DNA of 64,000 nucleotides from contig OZ024763.1 of NCBI GenBank assembly GCA_964016885.1, positions 6,634,001 to 6,698,000 on the forward strand. Direction: 5' to 3'. This DNA comes from Eledone cirrhosa (Eukaryota). Of the stretch, positions 28,306-38,329 are shown piece after piece. Each line of letters opens with the position of its first letter. Position 1 is the first letter of the stretch. The position numbers were made by a program, and so were the translations under genes. Below the pieces are notes generated by a model. The model was given only the letters and a program-made list of their open reading frames with translations, was not told the origin of the DNA and ran no database searches.

Positions 28306-29406
28306 TCAAGAGGAAGAGGAACTTGGTAAAACGTTGGTGGAATAACGACGACCACCAGCAATAGCAGCAGCACCTCCTCGACGACAACAACCGTGGCGGA
28401 GACAACAGATAGATCTGACTTCGGCACGGAAACTGTGGTTACAGTACCACACTATAAAAGGATTCAGTGAACTGCTGAGAAGGTAAGATCGTCTGCCAAT
28501 GTTTAAAAAACTAACGACGACAGGATGGAAGGTATCGTCTCTCATTTGAGTGACCATTAAGACCGCGATGACCAAAACACACGGTACAAAGCTAAGTATG
28601 AACACCAATGTGATCAAAAAGACTTTCTTTACATTTGGTTTGCTCTTTCGGTTTATTGACGTCATAGTGGTTGGATGTTTCTGGAAAGGTCGTCTGTTGT
28701 TGACCGGCGTCATGCTGTGTCGTGTTTTGCGCCATATTTTGCCGTAACAAACGACAGTGATGGTGATGGTCATGATAAGGATGACGAACAAGTAGAAAGA
28801 ATATACATATGGGTAAATTGTGTTTTCGTACTCATCTAGATTATTGCAATGTGTGCGGTTCATTTGTTTGAAATAAAACGGTTCGGTTTGGGTCCCGCCT
28901 ATGATAATCACCGGTATACATAAAACAACAGCCACACTGACTAAAATGGCGGCAGTGACTTTAACTTGATTTACAGTCAACTGAGACGAAATCGGGTAAC
29001 AAATTCTCCGGTAGTGGTCGACTGCTATGGCGACCAGCGTGAAGCTGGAGGCTAGCATTGTAACATTGTAAATATATCTTAGTACTTTACAGGCTATGTC
29101 AGATACAAACAGCAGTGGCATAAAGTCGTAGAGAATCATGAGCGGAGTGACTGTAAGGCAGGTGACCAGGTTTAGGAGACTTAATATAATAACGAAATAG
29201 TTCATTGGTGTAATTCTTTTCTTCATGCGACAGCCGTAGACATAGGGTATCAACCAGTTGCCCACTCCGCCAACAATTAACATGATAAGTAAGTAGATAA
29301 TAGACGGTGTGTTGTAGAGCGCCAGAGTAAAGTTAATTTCTTCGATACGTTCCGTTGTCGTTTCGTTTGATTCCGTCGACAAAAGGAAGTCGGAATCCGT
29401 CGCCAT
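28306..29406 (-). CDS. Class A (rhodopsin-like) GPCR, orphan/peptide-receptor-like, copy 1 (DHY variant)
   Basis: 366-aa ORF with 7 hydrophobic segments. N-terminal sequons NET/NFT, TM1 GxxGN, TM3 Cys (ACKV), DHYRRIC at the DRY position, ECL2 Cys, TM5 CY, TM6 FILSFVP, TM7 SSSLNPF and a Cys-rich tail. Confidence 0.93.
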   Translation of the reverse strand: MATDSDFLLSTESNETTTERIEEINFTLALYNTPSIIYLLIMLIVGGVGNWLIPYVYGCRMKKRITPMNYFVIILSLLNLVTCLTVTPLMILYDFMPLLFVSDIACKVLRYIYNVTMLASSFTLVAIAVDHYRRICYPISSQLTVNQVKVTAAILVSVAVVLCIPVIIIGGTQTEPFYFKQMNRTHCNNLDEYENTIYPYVYSFYLFVILIMTITITVVCYGKIWRKTRHSMTPVNNRRPFQKHPTTMTSINRKSKPNVKKVFLITLVFILSFVPCVLVIAVLMVTQMRDDTFHPVVVSFLNIGRRSYLLSSSLNPFIVWYCNHSFRAEVRSICCLRHGCCRRGGAAAIAGGRRYSTNVLPSSSSS

Positions 29407-29609
29407 ATTTGTTGTTGTTGTTCGTTTGTCACACAGTATTTGTTTCTGTTTGAAATGTTTTTTCCAGTTGAAATAATGAAATCAGAAGTACTAGGAGCCA
29501 ATCAGAAGTAATATTGTATATTTGTACGTGTTCTGAGTCTTCCACCTCTTTCGCCTCCTCCCCTCGTCTTCTCTTGTAGCCCCGCAGTGAAGGACTGTCT
29601 TGGTTGTTA

Positions 29610-29630
29610 CTGAAAGAGATAAAAACAGAA
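29610..29630 (-). promoter_or_regulatory. Probable splice acceptor ~200 nt upstream of the GPCR copy 1 ATG (copy 2 equivalent at ~38533-38553)
   Basis: Minus strand reads ttctgtttttatctctttcAG, a strong polypyrimidine tract plus AG at the edge of the unique block. Implies an upstream non-coding exon. Confidence 0.5.
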
Positions 29631-29673
29631 GGAATTTATATATACATATATATATATATATGTGTGTGTGTGC

Positions 29674-29709
<36 letters not shown>

Positions 29710-35233: not shown

Positions 35234-35238
35234 TTGAT

Positions 35239-35950
35239 CTATTTTGGTGTTGAAAGTGAAGAAAGAAAAGCACCTACCTCTCCGGGTTGTGTAATTTCCA
35301 TGGCATCAGGTGTGTTGGGTGGAGGGATGTTTTGTGGTGGTGTGGGGGTACCCGTGTGTGGTGGGGTTGGGGTATTTGGAGTTGTGTCAGGGAGAGGGGC
35401 GGTTATGGGGAAATCTTTCAAGAGGACGCGATTTAACGGTTTTAAACAGGGGGGGGGGGGGGCTCACGTCCCGTCTAAATTGTTATTTTAAGGAACGATA
35501 AAGGTCCAGAGGGACCTTTATCATTTTTAAATGGGTGAAGTTCTCTGTTGAGATAAAGTTTGGCCCTTCGGTCTGCACCATAGGGTTATTGTTTATTAAT
35601 TTAACCAGTTTTTTGTTTTCTTTATTTATATATGTGTATTGCAACGTCTTTTTTTATGATGCTGTCAATGTTTCGGAGAGGGGAGGCGCAGATTTATTTT
35701 TGTTTGTTGAGAGTGGGGTGTTTTTGATTGGAGTTGGTGTTTGTGTGTGGGTTATTTGTGGTGTGCTGGGTGTGTGTTTTCTTTTTTTTCTTTTAACTTG
35801 TCTGAAGGCTTCTCCTCCTTCTTCTTCAGAAGTTGGGGGAAACTCTTCAGCGCTAGGTGGGAGGGACGTGTTGTGTGGTTGTTTATTTTTTGCGGGAGGG
35901 GTAGATTTGTTACTGTTTTTTTTATTATTTGTTTGGAATGGGTTTTGTGG
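35239..35950 (-). mobile_element. Probable degraded LINE ORF1 C-terminal region
   Basis: Directly upstream of the APE start; Pro/Thr-rich with EEFPP..FRQVKRKKRK, typical of ORF1 tails. Confidence 0.45.
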
Positions 35951-37228
35951 TGGTTGTGGTGATGGTGGTGATGGTAATGATGATAGTGATGGTGGTGGTG
36001 TAGTGGTGTTGTTGTTGGTGTGGTGCTGGTGGTGTAGTGGTTGTGGTGGTGGTGATGGTGGTGGCGGTGTAGTGGTTGTGGTGAGGGTGGTGATGGTAAT
36101 GATGATAGTGATGGTGGTGGTGTAGTGGTGTTGTTGTTGGTGTGGTGCTGGTGGTGGCGGTGTAGTGGTTGTGGTGAGGGGGATGATGGTAATGATGATA
36201 GTGATGGTGGTGGTGTAGTGGTGTTGGTGGTGGTGATGGTGGTGGCGGTGTAGTGGTTGTGGTGATGGTGGTGATGGTAATGATGATAGTGATGGTGGTG
36301 GTGTAGTGGTGTTGTTGTTGGTGTTGTTGTTGGTGTGGTGCTGGTGGTGGCGGTGTAGTGGTTGTGGTGATGGTGGTGATGGTAATGATGATAGTGATGG
36401 TGGTGGTGTAGTGGTGTTGGTGGTGGTGATGGTGGTGGCGGTGTAGTGGTTGTGGTGATGGTGGTGATGGTAATGATGATAGTGATGGTGGTGGTGTAGT
36501 GGTGTTGTTGTTGGTGATGGTGGTGGCGGTGTAGTGGTTGTGGTGATGGTGGTGATGGTAATGATGATAGTGATGGTGGTGGTGTAGTGGTGTTGGTGGT
36601 GGTGATGGTGGTGATGACGACAGTGGTGGTGGTGATGACAATAAGGATGAACATGATAATGATGATACAACCAAATGTTATGTTAGTTATGAATGACCCC
36701 AAAGTTAAGGTTCCTTCGCAGTAAATGTTACAGTCTGGTAAGGTCCTGTAATTCCTGGTAGAGACGTAGGGCCTCCGTAGTGGCATATGATGTTTCTTGG
36801 GTACTTTAAGCCTGGCAGCGCCTATCTCCTCTCCAGTTCTCTCAATAAATACGACAGTTCAAACAGAGTATTTCATAAGAAATGTGGTAACGAAAGGGTT
36901 GAGTTTGTCTCTCAGTGAATATAGCATCTCAAATCGTATTTCATTAGAAATATGGTAACGAAAGGGTTACGTTTATCTCTCTCAGTAAATATGACAGTTC
37001 AAAGAGAGTATTTCATTAGAAATATTGTAACGAAAGGGTTACGTTTATCTCTCTCTGTAAATAGGTTAATTCAAATAGAATATTTCATTAGAAATATAGT
37101 AACGAGAGGGTTAAGTTTGTCCCTCTCTGTAAATACGTTAGTTCACATCGTATTTCATTAGAAATATGGTAACGAAAGGTTTAAGTTTCTTTGTCACTAT
37201 TTCTCTCGCAGCTTCCTCGGAGATTTAC

Positions 37229-38329
37229 TCAAGAGGAAGAGGAACTTGGTAAAACGTTGGTGGAATAACGACGACCACCAGCAATAGCAGCAGCACCTCC
37301 TCGACAACAACAACCGTGGCGGAGACAACAGATAGATCTGACTTCGGCACGGAAACTGTGGTTACAGTACCACACTATAAGAGGATTCAGTGAACTGCTG
37401 AGAAGGTAAGATCGTCTGCCAATGTTTAAAAAACTAACGACGACAGGATGGAAGGTATCGTCTGTTATTTGAGTGACCATAAAGACCGCGATGACCAAAA
37501 CACACGGTACAAAGCTAAATATGAACAACAATGTGATCAAAAAGACTTTCTTTACATTTGGTTTGCTCTTTCGGTTTATTGACGTCATAGTGGTTCGATG
37601 TTTCTCGAAAGGTCGTCTGTTGTTGGCCGGCGCCATGCTGCGTCGTGTTTTGCGCCATATTTTGCTGTAACAAACGACAGTGATGGTGATGGCTATGATA
37701 AGGATGACGAACAAGTAGGAAGAATATACATATGGGTAAATTGTGTTTTCGTACTCATCTAGATTATTGCAAAATGTGTGGTTCATTTGTTTGAAATAAA
37801 ACGGTTCGGTTTGGGTCCCGGCTATGATAATCACCGGTATACATAAAACAACAGCCACACTGACTAAAATGGCGGCAGTGACTTTAACTTGTTTTACAGT
37901 CAACTGAGACGAAATCGGGCAACAAATTCTCCGGTAGCGGTCGACTGCTATGGCGACCAGCGTGAAGCTGGAGGCTAGCATTGTAACATTGTAAATATAT
38001 CTTAGTACTTTACAGGCTATGTCAGATACAAACAGCAGTGGCATAAAGTCGTAGAGAATCATGAGCGGAGTGACTGTAAGGCAGGTGACCAGGTTTAGGA
38101 GACTTAATATAATAACGAAATAGTTCATTGGTGTAATTCTTTTCTTCATGCGACAGCCGTAGACATAGGGTATCAACCAGTTGCCCACTCCGCCAACAAT
38201 TAACATGATAAGTAAGTAGATAATAGACGGTGTGTTGTAGAGCGCCAGAGTAAAGTTAATTTCTTCGATACGTTCCGTTGTCGTTTCGTTTGATTCCGTC
38301 GACAAAAGGAAGTCGGAATCCGTCGCCAT
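37229..38329 (-). CDS. Class A GPCR, copy 2 (canonical DRY)
   Basis: 366-aa paralogue of 28306-29406 with DRYRRIC; 22 aa differences by manual comparison. Confidence 0.93.
   Translation of the reverse strand: MATDSDFLLSTESNETTTERIEEINFTLALYNTPSIIYLLIMLIVGGVGNWLIPYVYGCRMKKRITPMNYFVIILSLLNLVTCLTVTPLMILYDFMPLLFVSDIACKVLRYIYNVTMLASSFTLVAIAVDRYRRICCPISSQLTVKQVKVTAAILVSVAVVLCIPVIIIAGTQTEPFYFKQMNHTFCNNLDEYENTIYPYVYSSYLFVILIIAITITVVCYSKIWRKTRRSMAPANNRRPFEKHRTTMTSINRKSKPNVKKVFLITLLFIFSFVPCVLVIAVFMVTQITDDTFHPVVVSFLNIGRRSYLLSSSLNPLIVWYCNHSFRAEVRSICCLRHGCCCRGGAAAIAGGRRYSTNVLPSSSSS

What the first reader, a model, noticed from the sequence alone, without database searches (positions are those of the whole stretch)
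28306..38329. Tandem GPCR pair in which every coding difference is non-synonymous while the flanks are nearly identical
Seen: manual alignment gives ~23 nucleotide differences, 22 amino-acid changes and no synonymous change. All fall in ~640 bp from the DRY motif through ECL2, TM5, ICL3, TM6, ECL3, TM7 and the C-tail. The first ~130 codons and ~580 bp of 3' flank look identical. Known: neutral divergence should make roughly a quarter of changes synonymous and should also affect the flanks. Inference: strong diversifying selection on a young receptor duplicate, possibly chemosensory or immune, with or without gene conversion homogenising the flanks.
Basis: partly seen in the sequence, partly recalled or inferred. 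Interest (0 to 1): 0.82.

Follow-up and report, generated by a model that had tools for sequence, protein, structure and literature searches.

The report
Fast-diverging octopus receptor twin
Two side-by-side copies of an octopus cell-surface receptor gene differ at 22 amino acids with no silent DNA change, and about 18 of those changes, including loss of a key signalling residue, appear to fall on one copy, which likely reflects strong recent selection toward a new job, possibly in the suckers.

Summary
Confirmed: 23 nucleotide differences, 22 amino-acid changes, none synonymous, all in codons 131-342. The missing silent changes are not the oddity: flanks differ by 0.47%, which predicts about 1.4. 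The oddity is a sixfold excess of replacements (P about 1e-7). It is one-sided: outgroups place 18 of 22 changes on the left copy (A), including DRY to DHY; 33 of 34 relatives aligned keep that arginine. A related species' orthologue shows purifying selection (14 silent, 7 replacement; partial). Both letter sets occur in read-derived contigs, so they are not consensus errors. The O. bimaculoides orthologue is in the published cephalopod-specific GPCR Group 1, sucker-enriched, where positive selection is already reported; another cluster of the family here shows the same signal (92 versus 7). Best reading: a young tandem duplicate with directional selection on copy A. Open: two loci versus two alleles (junction anatomy favours two loci; depth was not calibrated), expression, ligand, and whether A still couples to G proteins. 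A strong new example of a known process.

The parts
28306..29406 (-). Copy A (derived): intronless class A GPCR CDS, 366 aa, DHY in place of DRY
   Evidence: (7tm_1 E 3.7e-29)
37229..38329 (-). Copy B (ancestral-like): intronless class A GPCR CDS, 366 aa, intact DRY
   Evidence: (7tm_1 E 3.6e-31)
28381..29016 (-). Codons 131-342 of A: segment holding all 23 differences (B equivalent 37304-37939)
29014..29016 (-). Codon 131: His in A, Arg (position 3.50 of the DRY motif) in B
   Evidence: (aligns to the ERF motif of NPFFR1)
27730..28305 (.). 3' flank of A, identical to 36653-37228
29610..29634 (-). Pyrimidine tract plus AG, a splice-acceptor-like site about 200 bp upstream of the ATG (B: 38533-38557); suggests a 5' UTR intron; not verified by RNA
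   Evidence: read from the sequence
29800..31990 (.). Young high-copy repeat with inverted ends: two copies in unit A (2.4% apart), one in unit B (38786-40150, 0.76% from A's first copy, with a 179-bp insert at about 38986-39165)
33639..33903 (.). 81-bp minisatellite ending unit A (longer array in unit B, 41433-42060)
33904..35950 (-). Junction spacer: internal fragment of a young high-copy LINE (endonuclease part), lacking both ends; 4-bp microhomology to the minisatellite on the left, short homology to the GTG-rich repeat on the right; no N gap
35950..36650 (.). GTG/GAT-rich repeat at the start of unit B (A equivalent about 27380-27720)

Best explanation
These are two tandem, 94%-identical class A GPCR genes that likely arose by a very recent duplication, after which the left copy (A) likely came under strong directional selection and took about 18 amino-acid changes, including DRY to DHY, while the right copy (B) kept the ancestral sequence. 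Shown: the difference pattern, the excess over flank divergence, the outgroup polarity, and both letter sets in read-derived contigs. Inferred: (i) the duplication was made by a non-homologous join (minisatellite to an internal LINE fragment), possibly between two haplotypes that already differed by insertions; (ii) changes in ECL2, outer TM4-6 and ECL3 (170, 184, 186, 204, 283, 288, 289) retune what the receptor binds; (iii) R131H with changes in ICL2, the TM5 end and ICL3 (137, 146, 222, 230-245) alters output, most likely weakening G-protein coupling as the same change does in the vasopressin V2 receptor, with some neighbours compensating; (iv) the tissue is likely the sucker, as for the O. 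bimaculoides orthologue. Limited gene conversion may have evened out the 5' third of the gene.
For: 23 N / 0 S (P 0.0003-0.0015). pN about 6 times flank divergence, P about 1e-7; against distal flank alone P = 8e-6; lower bound pN/pS about 2.8 from the 95% bound on pS. At the 20 differing sites alignable with both protein outgroups, B equals both at 17 and A equals both at none. Run X5 (related organism B, one contig, 94 other letters) has B's letter at the listed places of codons 131, 137, 170, 184, 186. X5 vs B over 103 codons: 14 synonymous, 7 replacement, ratio 0.15; Fisher vs 0/22 P = 1.5e-6, so silent sites here are free to change. Relaxed A with neutral silent sites in both copies: P about 5e-5. 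Old converted pair L022/L026 keeps 78 silent differences, unlike A/B. Family precedent in the same genome: L015/L019 92 N vs 7 S with flanks 2.3-2.5% (P = 1.5e-5). Orthologue A0A0L8GY22 is in Group 1, tau 0.93, 58% of expression share in sucker (PMC6408891 supplement 2). V2R R137H is loss of function with high constitutive beta-arrestin2 coupling (PMC7272623, passages). No N gap between the copies, and only short homologies at the junction.
Against: Two loci are not proven by reads: A- and B-type contigs have about equal depth (3.7/5.9 in X1, 5.4/5.8 in X2), as either model predicts, and X1/X2 may be the assembled sample. Other contigs in those runs show depths 6-14, which fits neither model clearly. 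X5 carries A's letter at codons 233 and 342, and 83 rows were hidden. No expression evidence for either copy; A has only 4.5 kb upstream before the junction, while the O. bimaculoides model spans 7 kb, so A may lack its first exon or promoter. A's changes hit sites shared by B and both outgroups at least as often as chance (17 of 20 vs 140 of 202, P = 0.15), which is also what decay looks like. The pair was picked out of a genome-wide scan for this very pattern. L011/L012 (3 N, 0 S, flanks 3-5%) shows no replacement excess. No structure model was obtained, so face assignments are manual.
Confidence: 0.6

Rival explanations
1. A and B are two alleles of one locus placed in tandem by the assembly. 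The replacement excess would remain real but would mean a strongly selected or balanced allele, not a new paralogue.
For: Flank divergence of 0.47% with differing insertions resembles haplotype differences; published octopus diversity is 0.07-0.26% in two other species (PMC13669787, passages), the same order. A:B depth about 1:1 with a sum of 10-11. An identical tandem pair L024/L025 exists in this assembly.
Against: No gap between the copies; the only N run is 6 kb left of A. The junction needs a join with 4-bp homology between minisatellite and mid-LINE, which an overlap-based assembler is unlikely to invent (inference). One allele with 18 replacements and no silent change needs the same selection.
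Confidence: 0.17
2. The duplication is older than it looks: gene conversion keeps evening out flanks and the 5' third, and selection guards the 22 differences (Leptodactylus ATP1A1 pattern).
For: Tandem, same orientation. Zero differences in codons 1-130 although that part is as variable between orthologues (26% vs 27%) and holds 22-27% of the changes in selected C2 pairs (P = 0.01-0.03). Proximal neutral sites depleted (P = 0.02). An implied rate of 5-10 times neutral on A alone is extreme.
Against: In the frog case silent differences persist next to guarded sites (median 4 bp; bioRxiv 10.1101/2020.08.04.234435, passages); here none in 640 bp with a difference about every 28 bp. Organism B gave one contig, mostly B-type, so the split is not seen across species.
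Confidence: 0.12
3. Copy A is a redundant or silent duplicate decaying without selection; the DRY loss is the start of pseudogenisation and the lack of silent changes is luck.
For: R3.50H is a loss-of-function change in V2R; conserved sites are hit freely; A may lack a promoter; the case was selected from many windows (about 1 in 1400 neutral pairs of this size would give 0 of 23).
Against: Neutral decay cannot put 6 times more changes in replacement sites than in flanks (P about 1e-7); it predicts silent changes in A (P about 0.004) and also in B (P about 5e-5); no stop or frameshift in 366 codons. It needs conversion of the flanks plus luck.
Confidence: 0.09
4. Consensus errors, or A-to-I edited RNA written back into DNA, made the differences.
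For: Cephalopods edit RNA heavily (recalled; also mentioned in the search listing of PMC9699675).
Against: Nine A-type letters sit together on one contig in both X1 and X2, and the codon 131 change is listed in X2. Only 4 of 23 B-to-A changes are A-to-G on the coding strand; 5 of 23 are CpG-type; 8 are transversions.
Confidence: 0.02

Closest known systems
Cephalopod-specific class A GPCR expansion, Group 1 (Ritschard et al. 2019, PMC6408891); O. bimaculoides Ocbimv22026028m / A0A0L8GY22 / XP_014777073.1
   Same: Closest named relative (69% identity), sister clade with support 1.0. Group is related to neuropeptide receptors, partly tandem, expressed outside the brain, with branches of omega > 1.
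   Different: That study found no selected sites and dealt with older duplicates; its table shows one gene at this place in the part read. Here a very young pair has a countable, one-sided set of changes and loss of R3.50.
Leptodactylus ATP1A1 R/S tandem duplicates (bioRxiv 10.1101/2020.08.04.234435)
   Same: Tandem same-strand pair, one ancestral and one derived copy, a set of amino-acid differences with little neutral divergence; a few major changes plus compensating ones is a plausible parallel.
   Different: There the split is old, shared across species, and silent differences cluster by the guarded sites; here no silent differences, no sign of trans-species sharing, no known selective agent.
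Vasopressin V2 receptor R137H (R3.50H; PMC7272623)
   Same: Same substitution at the same motif position.
   Different: A human disease mutation in a canonical receptor; this octopus lineage already has atypical microswitches (N for D in TM2, no Tyr in the NPxxY position, shared with orthologues), so the effect may differ.
Lophotrochozoan class A lineage-specific expansions proposed as chemosensory (PMC11886862)
   Same: Tandem class A receptors with fast evolution.
   Different: There variability is concentrated in the extracellular pocket and DRY is kept; here many changes are cytoplasmic and DRY is lost in A.

Membership tests
Class A (rhodopsin-like) GPCR | 7tm_1 domain over seven helices | tested here: met
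   Pfam PF00001 positions 1-259/260, 102-109 bits vs cut-off 30.5, both copies
Class A (rhodopsin-like) GPCR | DRY motif arginine (3.50) | tested here: inconclusive
   Met in B, not met in A (DHY); 33 of 34 aligned sequences keep Arg
Class A (rhodopsin-like) GPCR | TM2 Asp and NPxxY Tyr | tested here: not met
   Both copies and both orthologues have LSLLNL and NP(L/F)I(V/I)WY; a trait of this sub-lineage, not of the duplication
Cephalopod-specific GPCR Group 1 (Ritschard 2019) | Falls in the clade of listed Group 1 genes | tested here: met
   Sister to A0A0L8GY22 (support 1.0), which supplement 2 lists as class A Group 1; the paper's full tree was not rebuilt
Cephalopod-specific GPCR Group 1 (Ritschard 2019) | Conserved neighbour | tested here: inconclusive
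   O. bimaculoides has a second Group 1 gene 65 kb away on the same strand; here L027 lies about 88 kb away on the same strand; the two were not compared by sequence
Cephalopod-specific GPCR Group 1 (Ritschard 2019) | Expression outside the brain (sucker for this orthologue) | not testable with these tools
   No RNA holder listed
Neuropeptide FF receptor (the orthologue's automatic name) | Orthology and RFamide ligand | tested here: inconclusive
   Best PDB hit NPFFR1 at E 1e-20 with many peptide receptors close behind; Atlas neighbours are mixed; not filed as NPFFR
Selection-versus-conversion duplicates (Leptodactylus type) | Tandem, same orientation | tested here: met
   Offset 8923 bp, both minus strand
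Selection-versus-conversion duplicates (Leptodactylus type) | Silent differences retained beside guarded sites | tested here: not met
   0 synonymous differences
Selection-versus-conversion duplicates (Leptodactylus type) | Paralogue-specific residues shared across species | tested here: inconclusive
   One related organism laid: single contig, A-type letter at 2 codons only among rows shown; contigs show presence, not absence
Atypical / decoy GPCR | Altered DRY motif | tested here: met
   DHY in A
Atypical / decoy GPCR | Binds ligand, no G-protein signal, recruits arrestin | not testable with these tools
   Needs cell assays; only the V2R analogy

The most novel reading that the evidence does not exclude
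Copy A is a newborn decoy or arrestin-biased receptor in the octopus sucker: selection fixed R3.50H, a change known from human loss-of-function disease, along with about 17 others that retune ligand binding and the cytoplasmic face, so that A scavenges or dampens the signal that B still transmits. The pair would be a natural short list of residues for how an atypical GPCR is born.
Probability: 0.2. Interest if true: 0.78.

Novelty: new member of a known kind. Interest (0 to 1): 0.5.

Why it matters
Positive selection in this cephalopod receptor group was reported only at branch level, with no sites and no ligands. This pair gives a near-controlled experiment: two proteins 94% alike, a known ancestral state, 22 differences and an orthologue enriched in suckers, where chemosensing is so far credited mainly to ionotropic receptors (PMC11886862, passages). 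It makes testable whether young GPCR duplicates change ligand, output or both, and whether loss of the DRY arginine can be adaptive. The same signal in a larger cluster on another contig suggests the family is under continuing selection in this lineage.

Tried and rejected
Depth calibration on a single-copy neighbour (L027, single match) gave no result, so allele vs paralogue is open. No RNA holder listed; three short low-depth X4 contigs fall inside the presumed exon, but the run's kind is unknown, so not used as evidence. No structure model was obtained. Exact look-up of both proteins: not in the collection; search among shorter proteins with A: nothing at E <= 1e-10 among 300 candidates; near-length search gave 2 close relatives among 13 hits. 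Atlas search gave only generic 7tm_1 clusters. Rejected: RNA-editing write-back (4 of 23 A-to-G), CpG hypermutation (5 of 23), constraint on silent sites (orthologue pS 0.19), introgression or conversion from a diverged donor (would bring silent changes; next paralogue is 34-36% identical). Pooling L011/L012 and L019/L024 (9 N, 0 S) is not significant alone (P = 0.08-0.10). First exon and promoter could not be located. Whole-window self-BLAST timed out; two scripts gave no answer and were rerun in lighter form. No codeml or GENECONV run: too few close sequences. Paper searches showed no description of this pair or of adaptive R3.50H in cephalopods; the library lacks most subscription journals.
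Full report
1. Observation. The two minus-strand ORFs (A 28306-29406, B 37229-38329) align without gaps at an offset of 8923 bp. They differ at 23 nucleotides in 22 codons, all changing the amino acid, from codon 131 to 342; 576 bp of 3' flank are identical. With 25-30% of sites synonymous, 0 of 23 has P = 0.0003-0.0015, and 0.0006 conditioned on the change types.

2. What the signal is. The duplicated unit runs about 27.4-33.9 kb and 35.95-42.06 kb. In five segments that I chose outside simple repeats there are 13 substitutions in 2775 bases, 0.47% (911 of these bases lie in a young high-copy repeat). 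At this rate 1.3-1.5 silent changes are expected, so zero is ordinary (P = 0.23-0.28). The replacement rate of 2.8-2.9% is 5.9-6.3 times the flank rate (P about 1e-7; 8e-6 against the distal flank alone). The finding is thus an excess of replacements in a young pair.

3. Identity. Both proteins are rhodopsin-family GPCRs; the best solved relatives are NPFF and orexin receptors at E about 1e-20 to 1e-17, too distant to name a ligand. The closest named protein is from Octopus bimaculoides (P0001, 69%; A0A0L8GY22); that the window is octopod is inferred from this and the repeat landscape. In the supplement of Ritschard et al. 2019 (PMC6408891; main text parts 1-4 of 6 read; supplements searched; part 7 of 14 of file 2 read) this gene is class A Group 1, a cephalopod-specific expansion within molluscan neuropeptide-receptor relatives, tau 0.93, with expression shares of 0.58 in sucker, 0.15 in posterior salivary gland and 0.10 in sub-oesophageal brain. 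The paper reports branches with omega > 1 in Groups 1-3 and no significant sites; its figures and Dryad files were not seen, so I cannot say whether this gene's branch was flagged. The own genome holds exactly two close copies among 65 matches (112 of 174 candidates scored); the next paralogues are 34-36% identical.

4. Polarity. At the 20 differing sites alignable with both protein outgroups, B equals both at 17 and A equals both at none; the other three (137, 212, 222) have a third residue. Run X5, from a related organism, gave one contig over the CDS; it has B's letter at the listed places of codons 131, 137, 170, 184 and 186 and A's letter at codons 233 and 342; 83 rows were hidden. My tally: 18 changes on A (222 by one-step codon logic, an inference), 2 probably on B, 2 unresolved (212, 235); P = 0.0004 (18:2) to 0.004 (18:4). 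Over 103 codons where one search listed X5's letters (codons 343-354 left out because of indels) X5 and B differ by 14 silent and 7 replacement changes, pN/pS 0.15; this assumes the list is complete over that span. So the gene is normally under purifying selection, silent sites are free, and A has gained about as much replacement divergence (2-3%) as separates B from a species at 19% silent divergence.

5. Where the changes fall. By manual motif-based assignment, without a structure model: 10 cytoplasmic (131, 137, 146, 222, 230, 233, 235, 242, 245, 342), 7 in the outer half (170, 184, 186 next to the ECL2 cysteine, 204, 283, 288, 289), 5 mid-membrane (212, 213, 268, 271, 317). The first is R131H in the DRY motif; A is the only one of 34 aligned sequences (30 of the 65 own-genome matches plus 4 outside proteins) without this Arg. 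In human V2R the same change is loss of function with strong constitutive beta-arrestin2 coupling and weak agonist response (PMC7272623, 12 passages seen). Transfer to this receptor is an inference; the lineage already lacks the TM2 Asp and the NPxxY Tyr. Sites shared by B and both outgroups are hit 17 of 20 times against 140 of 202 in the background (P = 0.15): the changes are not confined to tolerant sites, which fits a change of function and also decay.

6. Real DNA, one locus or two? In runs X1 and X2 (one sample, possibly the assembled one) a contig identical to B and a contig with 9 other letters cover 37566-37749, and the tally of change types in X1 matches A's nine differences there; X2 lists A's letter at codon 131. 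Consensus error is excluded. Depths are about equal for the two types (3.7/5.9 and 5.4/5.8), which both models predict; calibration on a single-copy gene was not obtained, and the tool warns that contig depth is no copy number. Anatomy favours a real junction: no gap between the copies; unit A ends in an 81-bp minisatellite joined by 4 shared bases to the middle of a young LINE, whose fragment ends in the GTG-rich repeat of unit B. Because A's left side lacks this LINE and the units differ by insertions, the join may have united two pre-existing haplotypes; then part of the divergence could predate the duplication (inference). I put two loci at about 80%.

7. Conversion. Codons 1-130 have no difference though they are as variable between orthologues as the rest (26% vs 27%). 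Against the share seen in selected C2 pairs the depletion has P = 0.01-0.03, and neutral sites near the gene show 2 differences where 7.5 are expected (P = 0.02). Some conversion is plausible but not required. An old duplicate guarded against conversion, as in Leptodactylus ATP1A1 (bioRxiv 10.1101/2020.08.04.234435, 8 passages seen; lead from earlier scan note e1-8670837), should keep silent differences between guarded sites; L022/L026 in this genome does (78), A/B does not.

8. Family controls. Among 32 pairs above 55% identity from the 30 loci (not independent, most from one cluster on C2), 30 have pN > pS; the exceptions are L022/L026 (0.51) and the identical L024/L025. L015/L019 has 92 N vs 7 S with pS 3.0% close to flank divergence of 2.3-2.5% (P = 1.5e-5). 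Against the reading: L011/L012 has 3 N, 0 S but flanks at 3-5%, so no excess. The C2 result makes a chance outlier from a neutral background less likely and shows that the pattern is not unique to this pair.

9. Comparison and novelty. Positive selection in tandem cephalopod class A expansions is published (PMC6408891; PMC11886862, 12 passages seen), and octopus genes with similar ratios between sibling species are known (chst11, 31.5 N vs 1.5 S; PMC13669787, 13 passages seen). Five paper searches listed nothing on this pair, and the scan's own index had no look-alike. The process is known; the case is unusually clean, one-sided and includes loss of R3.50. Verdict: new member of a known kind, interest 0.5. 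Directional selection on a real young copy 0.6; alleles in false tandem 0.17; older pair with conversion 0.12; decay 0.09; artefact 0.02. The decoy reading has probability about 0.2 and would deserve about 0.78. Expression, ligand and signalling are all untested.

Noticed in passing
G000:C2 about 147.75-148.10 Mb (L006, L013, L015, L017-L019, L021, L024, L025, L028-L030): Large tandem cluster of the same GPCR family with replacement excess: L015/L019 92 N vs 7 S, L013/L015 106 vs 10, flanks 2.3-2.8%; changes richest in ECL2, TM5, ICL3, ECL3. Five members read NRY and one ARY at the DRY motif. Statistically as strong as the given pair.
   Followed up: partly
L024 and L025 (G000:C2:147993740 and 148002102): Tandem copies identical over the CDS and 2.8 kb of flank: very new duplicate or assembly duplication. 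L019 differs from them by 6 N, 0 S with flanks at 0.2%.
   Followed up: partly
L022 and L026 (G000:C14:398712 and 423809): Pair nearly identical in protein up to ECL2, then strongly diverged with 78 silent differences overall: looks like an old duplicate with a converted 5' half.
   Followed up: partly
window 33904-35950: Internal fragment of a young LINE family (copies 97-98% identical, at least 39 other places scored) forming the duplication junction.
   Followed up: yes
window 40280-40700 and 23984-24183: Fold-back (palindromic) repeat of about 420 bp present in unit B but not unit A.
   Followed up: no
window 4133-6913: Reverse-transcriptase retroelement ORFs on the minus strand (RVT_1 and zf-RVT), interrupted by a microsatellite.
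   Followed up: no
window 46651-48180: Long tandem repeat with a period of about 51 bp giving repetitive ORFs.
   Followed up: no
window 22244-22443: The only assembly gap in the window (200 N), 6 kb left of copy A.
   Followed up: partly
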